A DNA stretch of 64,000 nt, from contig CAXXYH010000004.1 in NCBI GenBank assembly GCA_963677925.2, positions 1,888,001-1,952,000 on the forward strand, given 5' to 3'. Positions 29,067 to 33,266 of the stretch are shown here, one piece after another. A program made the position numbers and the translations under genes. Each line of letters starts with the position of its first letter. Position 1 is the stretch's first letter. The notes under the pieces are model-generated. The model did not search any database. It had not been told where the DNA came from and worked only from the letters and a program-made list of their open reading frames with translations. The DNA comes from Spirochaetia bacterium. GTDB lineage: Bacteria; Spirochaetota; Spirochaetia; UBA9216.

Positions 29067-29813
29067 ATGGATGATTTTTCAGGAAAAAAAATATTTATAC
29101 TTTACCCGGATAAACAGTTAAGAGATAAAATATTTCACGGCTATTTGAGAGACCAGTTTGAAATATATTATCTTTCAGACCATGAAAAAATACGTGCTTT
29201 GATGGAATTCTATCCGGGCAGTATTCTATGTATAAATCTGATTAAAAACGATTTCAGCTGGCTTGCGAAGGATGTTTACGAGCAGCTATCCGATTTAGAA
29301 TATGAGCATAAGATTACCATGATTTCTCTATATGAGGATCTGCCTCCAGAAACCGATTTCTGGGATGCTTCAGTCTGCTGTCATGGGGAGTCCGAAATCG
29401 TTATAGAGGACCTGCGCAATACTTTCACAAGGTTCGGGGGCAAGGGCAGGAGAAATTTTGTAAGATACGGAGGGTACGGAGAAACTGTAGCCGGAATCAA
29501 GGTTATTCTGCCGGCAATGGTTGCGGAAGGCCATGTTCATGATATAAGCGCTCTCGGATTATCCTGCAGTCTTCCGGATCAAAGCGAGATCCCCGTCTCT
29601 GATGAACTTTTGGAAATAAGATTGGATCTTGGCGCTGAGCACCTCTATCTTAAAGCAATGAAGAACCTTGAACGCAAGATCACAGGCCGAAAAATACATG
29701 TCATGATATTTGATCGTAACATGGATTCTGAAAATCAGAGAGCCTTGTATAATTTTATACACAGCTCGCTTGATGCCGGTATGAATGAATTTATAAAAAA
29801 TCTATCTGATTGA
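29067..29813 (+). CDS. Protein with C-terminal PilZ domain
   Basis: RRNFVR (RxxxR) and DISALG (DxSxxG) motifs. Confidence 0.75.
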   Translation: MDDFSGKKIFILYPDKQLRDKIFHGYLRDQFEIYYLSDHEKIRALMEFYPGSILCINLIKNDFSWLAKDVYEQLSDLEYEHKITMISLYEDLPPETDFWDASVCCHGESEIVIEDLRNTFTRFGGKGRRNFVRYGGYGETVAGIKVILPAMVAEGHVHDISALGLSCSLPDQSEIPVSDELLEIRLDLGAEHLYLKAMKNLERKITGRKIHVMIFDRNMDSENQRALYNFIHSSLDAGMNEFIKNLSD

Positions 29814-29838
29814 CAGATACAGTTTTAGATAATATTCT
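29810..29838 (+). promoter_or_regulatory. Sigma70-type promoter for the TM1266-ABC operon
   Basis: TTGACA (29810-15), 17 nt, TATTCT (29833-38). Confidence 0.65.
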
Positions 29839-29921
29839 GTAGAGGCTCTGATGGAAGGTTTTACTGACCTGAGGTGTAAAATGAACATCACTTCAATAAC
29901 CTTCCTCCAGAAGGAGGACAG

Positions 29922-30194
29922 ATGAGCCAGACAGAAAAACGATACGCATTTACCGGAATTATAATCCAGGAGCGCGAAAAAAGTGCATCTGCGGTGCAGC
30001 AGATAATTTCTGAATATTCTACTATTATAATGGGTAGAATGGGCCTTCCTAATATAGACAACGGAAAACTTTCAATAATTACTCTTATCCTCCATGCCAA
30101 TACAGACGAAATAGGTGCATTTACAGGTAAACTCGGAAGAATTGACGGGGTAACTGTTAAAACCGGTATCAGCAAAACGATTGAACCGGAATAA
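29922..30194 (+). CDS. TM1266-family (ACT/NikR-C-like) putative regulator
   Basis: VQQIISEYSTIIMGRMGLP...DEIGAFTGKLGRIDGVTVK. Confidence 0.82.
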   Translation: MSQTEKRYAFTGIIIQEREKSASAVQQIISEYSTIIMGRMGLPNIDNGKLSIITLILHANTDEIGAFTGKLGRIDGVTVKTGISKTIEPE

Positions 30195-30214
30195 AATTTT
30201 TAAAGGATGATCGA

Positions 30215-31198
30215 ATGACACGAGGAGAAACAGGTATTAAAAAAGTAATACTAACTGTTCTGCTGACTGCAGTTCTTTCTGCTGCAGCTGTATTGCCCGC
30301 TGCTGCAGAGGATATTACAGTGACAGTGGCTGCATTAAAGGGGCCTTCAGGTTTTGCTGCTGCAGGGCTGCTGAAAGAGAATTTCCAGCCGGGCTACGGA
30401 GTACGGGCCGAATACATAATTGTATCATCGCCTGTTGAAGCTATAGCCAAAATGACAAGCGGCCAGGCCGATGCTGTATTTCTGCCGGTAAATACCGCAG
30501 CAAAGCTCTATTCAAAGGGCCCAGGTTTTAAACTTGCTGCTGTAAGCGGTCTTGGCTCACTATACATGGTTTCATCGGACCCTGCCGTTAAGGAGTGGGC
30601 AGATCTCAAAGGAAAGAAGATTTTTATAACAGGTAAGGGCGCAACCCCCGACTATCTGCTGCGGTATATTCTTGAAAAGAACGGGCTTAATCCCGATAGT
30701 GATGTTACACTTGATTTTACGGCTCAGGCTCCGCAGGTTGCCCAGCTGCTGATCGCCGGAAAAGCTGATACTGCTTTTATTCCGCAGCCCTTTGTCATGC
30801 AGACTGGTATGAAAAATCCTGCAGTTAAAATTGTTCTTGACCCGCAGGAAGAACTCATGGATATCAGAGGAGGGGATGAAGCCTTTCCTTTCACAGCCTT
30901 CGTAATTAGTCCAAGACTTGCGGTTGAAAACACCGGGGCAGCGAGGGCACTTTCTGCAGCACTTGAGCGTTCGATAAACTGGGTTATTGAAGATCCAAAG
31001 GCAGCCGGAATGGTTATCGAAGAATACGGTATAATGGCAGCAGCAACTGCTCAGAGTGCAATTCCTCTAACGGGCATCAAGTACATCTCAGCACAGGATG
31101 CAAAATCCGATGTGGTTGACTTTCTTGGTATGTTCATGGAAATGGATCCTGTATCCCTTGGAGGCTCCCTGCCTGATGAAGGTTTTTACTTCAAGTAA
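30215..31198 (+). CDS. NitT/TauT-type ABC substrate-binding protein
   Basis: Signal peptide; VAALKGPSG, GKGATPDY, PQPF and C-terminal GGSLPDEGFY. Confidence 0.85.
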   Translation: MTRGETGIKKVILTVLLTAVLSAAAVLPAAAEDITVTVAALKGPSGFAAAGLLKENFQPGYGVRAEYIIVSSPVEAIAKMTSGQADAVFLPVNTAAKLYSKGPGFKLAAVSGLGSLYMVSSDPAVKEWADLKGKKIFITGKGATPDYLLRYILEKNGLNPDSDVTLDFTAQAPQVAQLLIAGKADTAFIPQPFVMQTGMKNPAVKIVLDPQEELMDIRGGDEAFPFTAFVISPRLAVENTGAARALSAALERSINWVIEDPKAAGMVIEEYGIMAAATAQSAIPLTGIKYISAQDAKSDVVDFLGMFMEMDPVSLGGSLPDEGFYFK

Positions 31199-31937
31199 AA
31201 AGAAATTTATACCCGGAATTCTGACCGCTGCCGTTCTGCTTGTCATATGGAAGCTTGCTGCGGTCAGAATCAATATCCCCATCATTGTTCCGGCTCCGGA
31301 AGCTGTTATCTTGAGGTTCTCGGAAATTGCAGTTACTGCTGAATTCCGTGAAGCCCTGGGGCATACAGCCCTGAGAACACTGCTGGGCTTTGTCATTTCA
31401 TTCACTGCCGGCTTTGTAACCGGAATAGCCTGCGGTTCAAACCGGACTATTAATTCTGCTCTTTCGCCTGTAATAACCATAATCAGAACTGTTCCAGTGA
31501 TGTCGGTCATAATTCTGGCAATGATATGGTTTAAAACTGATATGGTTCCGGTTTTTGTCTGTTTTCTGATGGTATTTCCAATAATAACGGCCAATGTAAC
31601 CGAGGGTATAAGGAGCATTGACCCGGCACTGGTAGAGATGGGCCAGGTTTTCAGGCTCTCCTCCCGGGACATTCTTTTCCATATAACTGTTCCATCGGTG
31701 GTTCCCTTCATCCTTTCAGGTGTACGGGCCAGTGTGGGCGTTGCCTGGAAATCAGTAATTGCCGCTGAGGTCTTAAGCCAGCCGGTAAGGGCTATAGGCT
31801 CCGGGATGCAGTTTGCCCAGATGAACCTTGAAACTGCCGAGGTAATTGCCTGGACATTGACTGCAGTTATTTTAAGCTGGCTGAGTGAAAGAATACTTGA
31901 TTTCATTTCGGCAGGATTTATCAGGGGAGGTGCATGA
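31176..31937 (+). CDS. NitT/TauT-type ABC permease
   Basis: IRTVPVMS; GIRSIDPALVEMG EAA-like loop; start ATG 31176 after GGAGG. Confidence 0.88.
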   Translation: MKVFTSSKKKFIPGILTAAVLLVIWKLAAVRINIPIIVPAPEAVILRFSEIAVTAEFREALGHTALRTLLGFVISFTAGFVTGIACGSNRTINSALSPVITIIRTVPVMSVIILAMIWFKTDMVPVFVCFLMVFPIITANVTEGIRSIDPALVEMGQVFRLSSRDILFHITVPSVVPFILSGVRASVGVAWKSVIAAEVLSQPVRAIGSGMQFAQMNLETAEVIAWTLTAVILSWLSERILDFISAGFIRGGA

Positions 31938-32665
31938 TGGATGCTGCAGTGAAGATTTCAGATGTCAGTTTTAAGTATCCCGGCAGTAAAGAGCCGATAT
32001 TCAGCGGCTTCAGCATGAATCTTAAAGCATCATCTGTGACAGCTATCCTGGGGCCTTCCGGCTGCGGAAAGTCCAGCCTTCTTAATCTCGTTCACGGTCT
32101 CCTTCAGCCTCAGAAAGGAAATATAGAAGTCGGTGCTGAATCGATCTGTAAAAGCTATCTGTTTCAGGAGCCGAGGCTGCTTCCCTGGCGGACTGCAATG
32201 CAGAATATTGAACTGGTGCTCAAAGCAGATCACTCGCCAAAAGAATCCAGGGAGATTGCTCAAACCTTTCTTGACGCAGTAGGATTATCCGGGTTTGAAA
32301 AGTACTATCCGGCAAGACTTTCAGGCGGTATGCGTCAGCGTGTGGCCATTGCAAGAGCCTTTGCTTATCCGGCCGGTATGATTCTTATGGACGAGCCCTT
32401 TCAGGCTCTGGATCTCCGTCTTAAGCTGGAACTGACCAGTTTATTTCTGAAGCTCTGGACGGCTGATAACCGGACCGCAGTCTTTGTTACCCATGACATC
32501 AATGAGGCTCTGATTCTTGGCGATGAAATTATCGTTCTGTCTGGAAGCCGCCCGGCCGTCATCAGAAAGATCATTGAAAACCCGCTGAAAATATCTGAAC
32601 GAAATCCGGATCATCCGGAACTCATGGCTATCGAAGCTGAACTGTACCGGCTTCTCACAGATTGA
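31934..32665 (+). CDS. NitT/TauT-type ABC ATPase
   Basis: GPSGCGKS, FQEPRLLPW, LSGGMRQR, MDEPF. Confidence 0.92.
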   Translation: MMDAAVKISDVSFKYPGSKEPIFSGFSMNLKASSVTAILGPSGCGKSSLLNLVHGLLQPQKGNIEVGAESICKSYLFQEPRLLPWRTAMQNIELVLKADHSPKESREIAQTFLDAVGLSGFEKYYPARLSGGMRQRVAIARAFAYPAGMILMDEPFQALDLRLKLELTSLFLKLWTADNRTAVFVTHDINEALILGDEIIVLSGSRPAVIRKIIENPLKISERNPDHPELMAIEAELYRLLTD

Positions 32666-32667
32666 AC

Positions 32668-32696
32668 TTGACAGCTTTTGAATATGCACATATAGT
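32668..32696 (+). promoter_or_regulatory. Sigma70-type promoter for leader-RNHCP-rsgA
   Basis: TTGACA (32668-73), 17 nt, TATAGT (32691-96). Confidence 0.7.
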
Positions 32697-32891: not shown

Positions 32892-33266
32892 ATGTCGAGA
32901 TCTATCCAGAATAATATTGAGTATCATGAAACTTTTATCTGCAGCAACTGCGGAACCGCAGTAAGTCCTCCGGTATACGGTGGAGAACATCGTAATCACT
33001 GTCCGCACTGCCTGTACAGTCTCCATGTTGATTTAAAGAAGGGAGACAGACGCTGCGGCTGCAGGGGATTAATGGAGCCTATTTCAATCTGGTGCAGACC
33101 TTCAGGAGAATGGTCTGTGATTCACAGATGTATTAAGTGCGGATTTATCCGCCTTAACAGGATAGCGGGAGATGATAATGATGCAATGCTTCTGAAACTG
33201 GCTGTAAAGCCGATTTCAATGCTTCCGTTTCCTGTTGAGCAGTTATGGAGAAGTAAATATGAATAA
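32892..33266 (+). CDS. RNHCP domain-containing protein
   Basis: FICSNCG...HRNHCPHCLYSLHVD...C.GLMEPI...HRCIKCG...NRIAGDD. Confidence 0.92.
   Translation: MSRSIQNNIEYHETFICSNCGTAVSPPVYGGEHRNHCPHCLYSLHVDLKKGDRRCGCRGLMEPISIWCRPSGEWSVIHRCIKCGFIRLNRIAGDDNDAMLLKLAVKPISMLPFPVEQLWRSKYE

What the first reader, a model, noticed from the sequence alone, without database searches (positions are those of the whole stretch)
29845..32665. Unrecognised riboswitch-like translational switch ahead of a TM1266-family regulator and ABC importer
Seen: between a consensus promoter and the ATG lies a ~77-nt leader with mutually exclusive folds. In the OFF fold, UCCUCC-AGAA-GGAGGA sequesters the SD while the 5' part forms a nested hairpin UGAUG-[GAAGG]-UUUUAC-(UGACCUGAGGU)-GUAAAA-[UGAA]-CAUCA with a purine-rich internal loop. 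In the ON fold, 5' UCUG.UGGAAGGUU pairs with AACCUUCC.CCAGA and frees the SD. I cannot match it to a known riboswitch class. TM1266-type ACT-fold proteins are usually described beside [FeFe]-hydrogenase maturases, but here one heads a NitT/TauT importer of unknown substrate. Inference: a new cis-regulatory RNA that senses the imported cofactor, or a site bound by the small ACT-fold protein itself.
Basis: partly seen in the sequence, partly recalled or inferred. Interest (0 to 1): 0.75.

Follow-up and report, generated by a model that had tools for sequence, protein, structure and literature searches.

The report
New leader RNA for hydrogenase-cofactor genes
The leader holds a small, conserved RNA hairpin, found in several bacterial phyla and absent from the RNA family library, that sits before genes for building or possibly importing the iron cofactor of [FeFe] hydrogenases and probably switches them off.

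Summary
At 29848-29874, at the predicted RNA 5' end, lies a pseudo-symmetric hairpin. Both strands read CUGA-N3/4-RAGG: two tandem purine mismatches flank a covarying core.

The same hairpin precedes TM1266-like genes in Spirochaetota, a Bacillota-type phylum, Bacteroidota, WOR-3 and a Proteobacteria MAG. It also lies directly before hydG and before an ECF S-component gene. Rfam 15 has no match.

Three expression platforms occur: anti-sequestor/SD sequestor (this window, 7 of 7 long-form orthologues), SD and AUG inside the hairpin, and an intrinsic terminator. All imply that a stabilised hairpin means OFF.

The effector is unresolved. I favour the TM1266 protein (0.45) over a direct metabolite riboswitch (0.33). 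No clear motif was found near hydG in 16 fetched hydG regions or in one genome scan, all from genomes without TM1266.

The window's genome has nine [FeFe]-hydrogenase genes but no HydE, HydF or HydG. In maturase-less genomes of three phyla, TM1266 heads importer genes (ABC, TonB receptor). This suggests, unproven, uptake of a cofactor precursor.

The parts
29810..29838 (+). Promoter-like site: TTGACA (29810-29815), 17-nt spacer, TATTCT (29833-29838). The predicted transcription start is about 29845.
   Evidence: 10 of 12 matches. TTGACA plus a TAAxCT-type -10 recurs at the same distance before the motif in the orthologous leaders printed. The start site itself is inferred, not shown.
29848..29858 (+). 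5' strand of the conserved hairpin: CUGA, core UGG, AA, GG.
   Evidence: Model R1 matches 29844-29878 at 14.7 bits.
29859..29863 (+). Top of the hairpin: third inner pair U-A (29859 with 29863) and a UUU loop.
   Evidence: Read. The third inner pair varies across orthologues (U-A, A-U, C-G, G-C), as read from the rows.
29864..29874 (+). 3' strand of the conserved hairpin: CUGA, core CCU, GA, GG.
29853..29860 (+). GGAAGGUU, the 5' arm of the anti-sequestor. It overlaps the hairpin, so the two folds exclude each other.
   Evidence: kept in 7 of 7 long-form leaders.
29898..29905 (+). AACCUUCC, the 3' arm of the anti-sequestor.
29903..29908 (+). UCCUCC, the anti-SD (sequestor) arm. It overlaps the anti-sequestor arm.
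29913..29918 (+). GGAGGA, the Shine-Dalgarno sequence, paired in the sequestor hairpin. The start codon is at 29922-29924.
29922..30194 (+). TM1266-like protein, 90 aa, with a stand-alone ACT / NikR C-terminal-domain-like fold.
30215..31198 (+). Substrate-binding protein with a signal-peptide-like N-terminus; NMT1 / Phosphonate-bd / SsuA-like (NitT/TauT type). Ligand unknown.
   Evidence: nearest solved chain 3hn0, E 3.1e-28.
31176..31937 (+). ABC permease (BPD_transp_1). The start at ATG 31176 is my reading; the mechanical ORF starts at 31098.
   Evidence: best NCBIfam SaoP 123 bits, cut-off 295.
31934..32665 (+). ABC ATPase.
   Evidence: best TauB-type 168 bits, cut-off 357.

Best explanation
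The leader carries one copy of a widespread, undescribed cis-regulatory RNA. It is a 27-40 nt hairpin whose two strands both read CUGA-N3/4-RAGG. Folded, it stacks an outer C-G/U.G pair set, a tandem G.A/A.R mismatch, a 3-4 bp covarying core, a second tandem mismatch, and an inner G.U/G-C helix. The result has near two-fold symmetry.

I propose that a homo-oligomer of the TM1266-like protein, loaded with a small ligand, clamps this hairpin. TM1266 is encoded as the first gene behind the motif. In this window the clamped hairpin locks up GGAAGG. CCUUCCUCC is then free to pair with the Shine-Dalgarno sequence, and translation of TM1266 and the coupled ABC importer stops. Without the clamp, GGAAGGUU pairs with AACCUUCC and the SD is free. 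The circuit is feedback repression of genes that supply the [FeFe]-hydrogenase cofactor.

Shown: the motif, its covariation, its gene associations and the competing pairings. Inferred: the direction of the switch, the protein as effector and the nature of the ligand.
For: Structure. On 44 matches aligned by model R1, 94.6% of cells pair against 67.1% in shuffles (0 of 500 reach it) and 41-62% when partners are slid. The four core pairs each show 5-6 pair types. An unbiased flank-only scan agrees.

Three platforms with one logic. (a) Anti-sequestor/sequestor in 7 of 7 long-form leaders. (b) Short forms whose 3' RAGG is the SD itself (L005, L006, L010, L107), and spirochaete hydG-type leaders where the hairpin holds both the SD (GAGG) and the AUG (CUGAUGG). 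(c) Bacillota-type leaders followed by a terminator whose 3' half is complementary to the motif's 5' strand (L125, L132; my reading).

Protein as effector. TM1266 is the first gene after the motif in nearly all cases. The motif also lies between TM1266 and hydG (L061, L127). It lies before unlinked hydG (L145, L146, L147, L150, L154) and before an ECF S component (L149), in genomes that all carry TM1266 elsewhere. Tandem copies occur in L128, L145 and L150. For 16 HydG-positive genomes without TM1266, no match above 13.8 bits was found in the fetched regions upstream of hydG (12; 4). The 13.8-bit match lies 1.3 kb upstream and reads like coding sequence. In a 17th such genome, G011, a whole-genome R2 scan found only an 18.4-bit match far from hydG, and the region before hydG is coding. 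The RNA's two-fold symmetry fits a homo-oligomer, and the solved TM1266 entry 2nzc has four chains. R7 and R39 are invariant and K80 nearly so in 14 homologues.
Against: TM1266 has no known RNA-binding fold. Its nearest structures are the Ni-binding C-terminal domain of NikR and ACT domains, which bind small ligands or metals. By my count from the sequence it has about ten basic and ten acidic residues, so it is not basic overall.

The regulon looks like a classical riboswitch regulon: a biosynthetic enzyme plus ABC, ECF and TonB-dependent uptake genes. The TM1266/motif co-occurrence could arise because they travel as one cassette, and related genomes are not independent. In several TM1266-less genomes hydG sits inside an operon, and I did not inspect the operon start.

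Standard energy rules give the hairpin plus SD hairpin only -15.3 kcal/mol, against -25.9 for the MFE, which already contains the SD hairpin. The direction of switching is therefore not settled by energies. Many TM1266 loci show no motif. In one spirochaete-phylum set, 28 of 40 loci have an R1 match of at least 14 bits upstream, counting a doubtful one in L074. In the Bacillota-type set the figure is about 8 of 30. The window's own copy scores weakly (14.7 bits with R1) and is not reported at E<=1 by R2 in its own genome.
Confidence: 0.45

Rival explanations
1. A true riboswitch. The symmetric hairpin itself binds one or two molecules of a small ligand in its two purine-rich internal loops. 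The ligand would be an H-cluster precursor or a related metabolite made through HydG or taken up by the importers. Binding has the same OFF outcome. TM1266 would be a regulated carrier or chaperone, not the sensor.
For: The structure is conserved and covaries. It is joined to both terminator and SD-sequestering platforms in different phyla. The regulon mixes a biosynthetic enzyme (HydG) with NitT/TauT ABC, ECF S-component and TonB-dependent uptake genes. The motif occurs before hydG with no TM1266 gene between them (5 loci). TM1266 has a ligand- or metal-binding fold rather than an RNA-binding one.
Against: The RNA is a simple hairpin with no junction or pseudoknot to enclose a ligand. No clear copy was found near hydG in 17 HydG-positive genomes lacking TM1266. 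Every genome with a hit I judged real has TM1266. Two-fold symmetry and tandem or triple sites are more typical of oligomeric protein sites.
Confidence: 0.33
2. The switch works. A nested 5' hairpin (UGAUG/CAUCA with UUUUAC/GUAAAA) and its purine-rich internal loop form the sensing domain of the OFF state.
For: The pairings exist in the window and give -24.3 kcal/mol together with the SD hairpin, close to the MFE of -25.9.
Against: The 3' arms of that hairpin are not kept in the orthologous leaders L003, L004, L007, L008, L011 and L102. These do keep the CUGA/RAGG hairpin and both SD-related pairings. Short-form leaders lack the region altogether (L005, L006, L010, L107).
Confidence: 0.03
3. 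A DNA operator. The two CTGA-N3-RAGG direct repeats just after the -10 are bound by a DNA-binding repressor, and the RNA folds are incidental.
For: In this window and its family the element starts 7-9 nt after the -10 hexamer. At the DNA level it is a direct repeat.
Against: The two cores covary to stay complementary, which a direct-repeat operator does not need. The element is always on the sense strand. It lies at variable distances from promoters, overlaps start codons, sits between genes of an operon, or precedes terminators. TM1266 has no DNA-binding domain.
Confidence: 0.03
4. A site for a general RNA-binding factor (a CsrA-type GGA binder or an L7Ae-type k-turn binder), or for a dedicated factor other than TM1266.
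For: There are repeated RAGG(A) elements, one of them at the SD, and tandem G.A mismatches.
Against: In the supported fold the GG of RAGG are paired rather than presented in a loop. There is no 3-nt bulge as in a k-turn. The invariant CUGA is unexplained by these binders. The motif is single-copy in the window's genome and confined to TM1266, hydG and importer leaders. The consensus features of CsrA sites and k-turns are recalled, not tested.
Confidence: 0.06

Closest known systems
PyrR-type attenuation in Bacillus pyr operons (recalled, not tested here)
   Same: A small regulatory protein is encoded as the first gene of the operon it controls. Its RNA binding loops lie in the 5' leader, between cistrons and before unlinked transporter genes. 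Binding favours a terminator or blocks the SD. The end result is feedback repression.
   Different: The RNA sequence and shape are unrelated. PyrR has a phosphoribosyltransferase fold, whereas TM1266 has an ACT / NikR C-terminal-like fold with no known RNA binding. Binding is not shown here.
LicT/SacY CAT domain with the RAT hairpin (recalled)
   Same: A short hairpin with two similar internal loops of non-canonical pairs has quasi two-fold symmetry. It is clamped by a protein homodimer and competes with a terminator.
   Different: There the clamp stabilises an antiterminator (ON). Here the clamped hairpin frees a sequestor or terminator (OFF). There is no sequence likeness and the protein family differs.
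Cobalamin riboswitch regulon (recalled)
   Same: One RNA class stands before biosynthesis genes and before TonB-dependent receptors, ABC importers and ECF components for a metal-containing cofactor. It works as an OFF switch with both terminator and SD platforms.
   Different: The cobalamin aptamer is several times larger, with junctions and a kissing loop. There is no Rfam match here, and direct ligand binding is unknown.
Small hairpin riboswitches: NMT1 motif (xanthine) and mini-ykkC (guanidine-II) (features recalled)
   Same: These are very small aptamers built from a hairpin with conserved internal loops or loop nucleotides. NMT1-motif RNAs also precede NMT1-type binding-protein genes.
   Different: No Rfam family, including any for these classes, reaches E<=10 in the window leader or E<=0.1 in 17 related loci. 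The conserved nucleotides differ.
NikR (Ni-responsive repressor), C-terminal domain
   Same: After 2nzc itself it is the best structural match of the TM1266 model: Foldseek E 4e-06, TM about 0.8, in a tetramer-forming domain.
   Different: TM1266 lacks the ribbon-helix-helix DNA-binding domain. No His or Cys is among the invariant residues, so nickel-type binding is unlikely.

Membership tests
Any Rfam 15 family (known riboswitch or leader classes) | A covariance-model match at or near the family's gathering score | tested here: not met
   Window 29600-30100 at E<=10 gave only two chance-level matches, mir-1468 (17.2 bits, gathering 95) and SNORD45. Seventeen related loci (53,202 bases) at E<=0.1 gave one unrelated palindrome match.
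Riboswitch (direct metabolite sensor) | A conserved aptamer-like structure supported by covariation | tested here: met
Riboswitch (direct metabolite sensor) | The same sensing domain joined to different expression platforms in different taxa | tested here: met
   SD sequestration, anti-sequestor and intrinsic-terminator forms. The terminator reading is by eye.
Riboswitch (direct metabolite sensor) | Binds its ligand without protein | not testable with these tools
   Needs in-line probing or ITC.
Riboswitch (direct metabolite sensor) | Occurs independently of any dedicated protein factor | tested here: not met
   No clear copy near hydG in 17 HydG-positive, TM1266-negative genomes. All 12 hits judged real lie in TM1266-positive genomes. 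Caveat: related genomes are not independent, and only hydG-proximal DNA was scanned at full sensitivity.
Protein-dependent RNA attenuation (PyrR/TRAP/LicT kind) | The regulator gene is present wherever the RNA site is present and is often encoded in the controlled operon | tested here: met
Protein-dependent RNA attenuation (PyrR/TRAP/LicT kind) | The regulator binds the RNA | not testable with these tools
   Needs EMSA, footprinting or a co-crystal.
Protein-dependent RNA attenuation (PyrR/TRAP/LicT kind) | The regulator has a recognised RNA-binding fold | tested here: not met
   The nearest folds are 2nzc, the NikR C-terminal domain and ACT domains. The beta-alpha-beta-beta-alpha-beta topology is shared with RRM-like domains (recalled), so this does not exclude RNA binding.
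TM1266 family (PF21699 / TIGR03959) | A profile match over the curated cut-off and a fold like 2nzc | tested here: met
   PF21699 90.1 bits (cut-off 27); TIGR03959 91.5 bits (cut-off 60.8). phmmer to 2nzc E 6.4e-13. Foldseek TM 0.84-0.94.
NitT/TauT-type ABC importer with a named substrate (Ssu, Tau, Nrt, Sao) | An equivalog-level NCBIfam score over the cut-off | tested here: not met
   SBP: SsuA_fam 43.3 bits (cut-off 163.5). Permease: SaoP 123.2 (295). ATPase: TauB-type 168 (357). Family-level domains are present, but the substrate is unknown.
Kink-turn / box C/D | A 3-nt bulge followed by tandem sheared G.A pairs (recalled definition) | tested here: not met
   The internal loops are symmetric 2x2 with no bulge, as read from the rows.

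The most novel reading that the evidence does not exclude
The motif and TM1266 mark a supply regulon for the [FeFe]-hydrogenase active-site cofactor. In lineages that keep several hydrogenase genes but have lost HydE, HydF and HydG, the genes behind TM1266 are importers, and in the window's family and the Bacteroidota MAG the motif precedes them. These are a NitT/TauT ABC system in this spirochaete family and in a Bacillota-type genome, a TonB-dependent receptor with a divergent ABC system beside a hydrogenase gene in a Bacteroidota MAG, and a PiT-type carrier in another genome. On this reading the importers scavenge a ready-made H-cluster precursor, such as the [2Fe] subcluster or a HydG-type iron-carbonyl-cyanide unit, released by neighbouring cells. 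TM1266 would bind it inside the cell. That would be a natural salvage route for an organometallic cofactor. It would answer how maturase-less organisms obtain active [FeFe] hydrogenases.
Probability: 0.2. Interest if true: 0.95.

Novelty: new variant of a known kind. Interest (0 to 1): 0.85.

Why it matters
This is a compact RNA element shared by at least four or five phyla of anaerobes and absent from Rfam 15. None of my six literature searches, nor three discovery papers checked by term search, mention it. It gives the first concrete regulatory handle on [FeFe]-hydrogenase maturation genes. It also gives a testable role for the TM1266 family, which has carried the label 'putative regulator' without evidence.

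It exposes a clean genomic pattern. The window's genome (99.6% complete, no N) has nine hydrogenase catalytic-domain genes and none of the three maturases. Its only copy of the motif controls TM1266 plus an importer.

How organisms without HydEFG activate [FeFe] hydrogenases is an acknowledged open question. Passages of PMC11216029 propose an 'alternative pathway'. PMC3226654 notes species with the hydrogenase but no maturases. The importer and TM1266 are now specific candidates that can be deleted, expressed and assayed.

Tried and rejected
  - The single-protein scan of genome contigs gave only 5 loci.
  - The metagenome scan with A3 gave 3 loci.
  - Diversity therefore came from the genome search and the fetch from genomes.
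- The pdb_via_wide library was not available.

RNA evidence
- The look-up of sequencing runs listed no RNA holder.
- The transcription start and the leader transcript are therefore unverified.

Model limits
- R2 is not more sensitive than R1 for the 3-nt-core class.
  - It does not report the window's own copy at E<=1 in the genome.
  - Its single hit there (C4:1104924, 19.6 bits) lies in sequence that reads as coding.
- In one search I judged 8 of 20 places to be chance.
  - Seven lie inside long ORFs: L148, L151, L152, L153, L155, L156 and L158.
  - L157 lies at the start of an unrelated ORF.
- The doubtful weak hits L074, L109, L110 and L127 (-255) were left uncounted as real.

Leaders with no clear motif
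- G422 (TM1266-ABC), G407, G344, G486, G034 and G026 show no clear motif with R2 or by eye.

Energies and alignments
- Thermodynamic folding does not single out the conserved hairpin.
- An alignment of the 11 close 3-nt-core copies has too little variation to test on its own, and L006 is misaligned. I did not run pair counts on it.

Other readings and literature
- CsrA-site, k-turn and DNA-operator readings were considered and rejected (see rivals).
- The nearest solved structure to the SBP (3hn0, 'nitrate transport protein') gives no ligand clue.
- Supplementary tables of the papers cited were not seen. Table S3 of PMC11216029 may list bacterial or archaeal maturase-less genomes that bear on the salvage idea.
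Full report
**What is in the window.**
A sigma-70-like promoter, TTGACA-17-TATTCT, lies at 29810-29838. It is followed by a leader of about 77 nt and then four co-directional genes:
- a 90-aa TM1266-like protein at 29922-30194 (PF21699 90.1 bits; TIGR03959 91.5 bits, cut-off 60.8);
- a substrate-binding protein of the NMT1 / Phosphonate-bd / SsuA kind at 30215-31198;
- a permease, which I read as starting at ATG 31176;
- an ABC ATPase at 31934-32665.

No equivalog-level transporter model reaches its cut-off, so the substrate is unknown. An Rfam scan of 29600-30100 at E<=10 found only two chance-level matches.

The SD hairpin UCCUCC-AGAA-GGAGGA (29903-29918) is part of the minimum-free-energy fold. 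The 86-nt fold gives -25.7 kcal/mol (z = -2.3) and the 121-nt fold gives z = -2.6.

| Fold | Energy (kcal/mol) |
|---|---|
| Minimum free energy (contains the SD hairpin) | -25.9 |
| GGAAGGUU:AACCUUCC enforced (anti-sequestor) | -22.4 |
| Conserved hairpin plus SD hairpin | -15.3 |

Energies alone do not say which matter.

**Comparison with relatives.**
- Searching the TM1266 protein in 41 genomes (the window's own plus 40 relatives) gave matches in 19, including 9 of 10 other members of the window's family f1.
- Printing the 160 nt before each gene showed an obviously conserved block starting 7-9 nt after the -10 hexamer.
- Its consensus is CUGA, N-G-G, AA, GG, a short variable loop or hairpin, CU, GA, C-C-N, RAGG.
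- In 7 of 7 long-form leaders (L001, L003, L004, L007, L008, L011, L102), GGAAGG plus 0-4 further bases pairs with a downstream CCUUCC. This gives 6-10 contiguous pairs, including a compensatory UA/UA in L102 and U.G in L004 and L007.
- In the same 7 of 7, CCUUCCUC pairs with the SD region, at -7.2 to -12.5 kcal/mol.
- Short-form leaders (L005, L006, L010 and the WOR-3 MAG L107) lack these extra elements. There the 3' RAGG of the block is the SD itself.

**The motif is much wider than the ABC operon.**
- PF21699 occurs in 91 of 301 sampled genomes of the window's phylum.
- It occurs in 112 of 251 genomes of the phylum of a Caldicoprobacter genome reached through.
- In most loci TM1266 is followed by HydG (radical SAM plus BATS).
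- In spirochaete hydG-type leaders there are two modules.
  - The first is a CUGA-hairpin-YRAGGA module with a freely covarying stem.
  - The second is CUGA-UCCR-GA-GG-N4-7-CU-GA-UGGA-RAAG. Its 5' strand holds the SD (GAGG) and its 3' strand holds the start codon.
- In the Bacillota-type phylum the same two-strand element, (C)CUGA-N4-RAGGGG twice, lies 70-150 nt upstream and is followed by a terminator-like hairpin and U-run.
- In L125 and L132 the 3' half of that terminator is complementary to the motif's 5' strand. That is my reading, not a computed result.
- A Porphyromonadaceae MAG (L059/L106), a WOR-3 MAG (L060/L107) and a Proteobacteria MAG (L057/L105) carry it too.
- An AT-rich genus of the window's phylum (L026-L054) has a variant with CUAA and RAAGG flanks and an A.A/U.U inner loop.
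- Seventeen such loci gave no Rfam match at E<=0.1.

**The fold.**
Both strands read CUGA-N3/4-RAGG. Paired antiparallel they give the following stack:
- C-G and U.G pairs;
- a tandem G.A / A.R mismatch;
- a 3-4 bp core;
- a second tandem mismatch;
- G.U and G-C pairs, then the loop.

This is a hairpin with near two-fold symmetry. I built model R1 from 19 copies with four-nucleotide cores. I had chosen those copies with a pattern that demanded core pairing, so they are biased.

**Tests of the fold.**
- R1 then found copies that were not in its seed: L134, L061, L127, L143-L147, L150 and L154.
- On 44 matches aligned by R1, 94.6% of cells pair. Shuffles give 67.1% (0 of 500 reach the observed value) and slid partners give 41-62%.
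- The four core pairs show 5-6 pair types each. That alignment is fitted to the model and leans towards it.
- As an independent check I scanned for the flanks alone, with no pairing demanded.

| Sequence scanned | Four-nt-core matches | Perfect pairing | At least 3 of 4 | Three-nt-core matches |
|---|---|---|---|---|
| TM1266 leaders (about 38 kb, one strand, start-codon module excluded) | 15 | 6 | 9 | 11 |
| Window's 5.04 Mb genome, both strands | 46 | 2 | 8 | 14 |

- The window's genome has one strict copy, the one in the finding.
- The window's copy has a 3-nt core with a U.U at its outer position and scores only 14.7 bits with R1.
- Its kinship to the general motif rests on three things. 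The flanks are identical, the position is the same, and 3-nt-core copies also precede TM1266-hydG operons (L010, L107).

**What the motif controls.**
- A whole-genome R1 search of 151 genomes of the Bacillota-type phylum gave 20 places at E<=0.01.
- The six best all lie just upstream of TM1266, by comparison of coordinates.
- Five more lie directly before genes that score over the HydG cut-off, with no TM1266 between them (L145, L146, L147, L150, L154). Several have terminators, and two have tandem motif copies.
- One lies before an ECF transporter S component (L149).
- I judged eight to be chance: seven inside long ORFs and one at an unrelated start.
- In L061 and L127 the motif lies between TM1266 and hydG.
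- In the Porphyromonadaceae MAG the order is: a hydrogenase gene, a divergent ATPase-permease-SBP set, the motif, TM1266, then an 809-aa TonB-dependent receptor.

**Riboswitch or protein site?**
I cross-read the lists for the same 151 genomes. This was done by hand, not by script.

| Genome class | Genomes (of 151) |
|---|---|
| HydG and TM1266 | 65 |
| HydG only | 12 |
| TM1266 only | 4 |
| Neither | 70 |

- In the 12 HydG-only genomes, about 800 nt upstream of hydG holds no match above 10.9 bits (R2, filters off, 11,652 bases).
- In a Bacteroidota-type sample only 4 of 151 genomes have HydG. None of the 4 has TM1266. Their upstream regions give at best 13.8 bits, in sequence that reads as coding.
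- G011, a spirochaete-class genome, has HydG, no TM1266 and no motif near hydG.
- All 12 hits judged real are in TM1266-positive genomes.

Three things fit a small autoregulated RNA-binding protein:
- TM1266 is the first gene behind the motif.
- There are intercistronic and tandem copies.
- The RNA is two-fold symmetric.

Two things count against it:
- The TM1266 model (pLDDT 92.4) resembles 2nzc, the nickel-binding C-terminal domain of NikR and ACT domains, not a known RNA binder.
- The regulon (an enzyme plus ABC, ECF and TonB uptake genes) looks like that of a cofactor riboswitch.

I put the protein model at 0.45 and a direct riboswitch at 0.33. All three expression platforms imply that a stabilised hairpin means OFF, but this direction is inferred.

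**An unexpected genomic pattern.**

| Genome(s) | Fe_hyd_lg_C genes | HydG | HydE | HydF | TM1266 is followed by |
|---|---|---|---|---|---|
| Window's genome G000 (99.63% complete, four contigs, no N) | 9 | none | none | none | ABC importer |
| G001, G004-G007 (family f1, 96-100% complete) | 5-9 each | none | none over cut-off | none | ABC importer |
| G344, G407, G422, G486 (the four TM1266-only genomes) | 4-5 each | none | not tested | none | G422: SBP-permease-ATPase; G407: PHO4/PiT carrier plus PhoU_div |
| Porphyromonadaceae MAG G339 | 5 | none | not tested | none | TonB-dependent receptor, with a divergent ABC set |

- For G000, a local tblastn with a HydG and a HydF query agrees. HydG gives nothing and HydF gives only GTPase-domain fragments.
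- HydG was found in 0 of 10 family members of f1, while 9 of 10 have TM1266 followed by the binding-protein gene.
- Among the 30 class relatives outside f1, HydG occurs in 10. TM1266 occurs in 9 of those 10 and in none of the 20 without HydG.
- Exceptions exist. G026 and G034 have both HydG and a TM1266-SBP operon.
- Completeness of the MAGs and of the Bacillota-type genomes was not given.
- Passages I read in PMC11216029 say that most archaea with [FeFe] hydrogenases lack HydEFG and that an alternative pathway is likely.
- PMC3226654 notes a few species with the hydrogenase but no maturases.
- The importer-plus-TM1266 operons under the hydG-type leader are therefore candidates for uptake of a cofactor precursor. 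This is a hypothesis only.

**Novelty.**
- Searches for 'TM1266' (9 papers), 'iron-only hydrogenase system regulator' (5) and hydG with riboswitch (7) listed nothing relevant by title or abstract.
- Three further searches also listed no paper on the motif.
- Three Breaker-laboratory discovery papers contain none of 'hydG', 'hydrogenase', 'TM1266' or 'ACT domain' in their main text. Their supplements were not seen.

Noticed in passing
whole genome G000 (window = C4:1888001-1952000): There are nine Fe_hyd_lg_C ([FeFe]-hydrogenase catalytic domain) genes but no HydE, HydF or HydG in a 99.6%-complete, N-free assembly. The same pattern holds in five other genomes of the family.
   Followed up: yes
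window 29067-29813 (+): A 248-aa ORF with no Pfam or NCBIfam match lies directly upstream of the promoter. It is syntenic (42-95% identity) before the TM1266 operon in 6 of the other family loci (L002-L004, L006-L008).
   Followed up: partly
window 32668-32696 and 32892-33266 (+): A strong promoter-like site (TTGACA-17-TATAGT, 11 of 12) lies right after the ABC ATPase stop. It is followed by an RNHCP-domain zinc-ribbon protein (PF12647, 122.5 bits).
   Followed up: no
G000:C4:602946-603179 (outside the window): A second, very distant TM1266-like frame in the same genome (E 5.4e-4, 31% identity). Its upstream region shows no motif.
   Followed up: partly
L107/L108 (G340:C20:18436-18957): The WOR-3 MAG has two adjacent TM1266-like frames in tandem behind one motif copy, followed by HydG and HydF. 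A hydrogenase gene lies just upstream on the same contig.
   Followed up: no
L184 380-2809 (G339:C36): In a Porphyromonadaceae MAG, TM1266 is followed by an 809-aa TonB-dependent receptor. It is flanked by a divergent NitT/TauT-type ABC set and a hydrogenase gene. This MAG showed no HydG or HydF.
   Followed up: yes
L176 1177-2907 (G407:C33): In a HydG- and HydF-less genome, TM1266 is followed by a PHO4/PiT-family carrier and a PhoU_div (DUF47) protein. No motif was detected upstream.
   Followed up: partly
L026-L054 (one AT-rich genus of the window's phylum): The TM1266-hydG leaders share a variant hairpin (CUAA flank, AUGA/UCAU core, A.A/U.U inner loop, RAAGG flank). They also share a conserved AUCUGAUUU close to a start codon that has no obvious SD.
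   Followed up: partly
L009 and L020 (G005): One family member carries two TM1266-ABC operons. Their motif copies have long (33-38 nt) structured insertions in the loop and leaders of about 150-170 nt.
   Followed up: no
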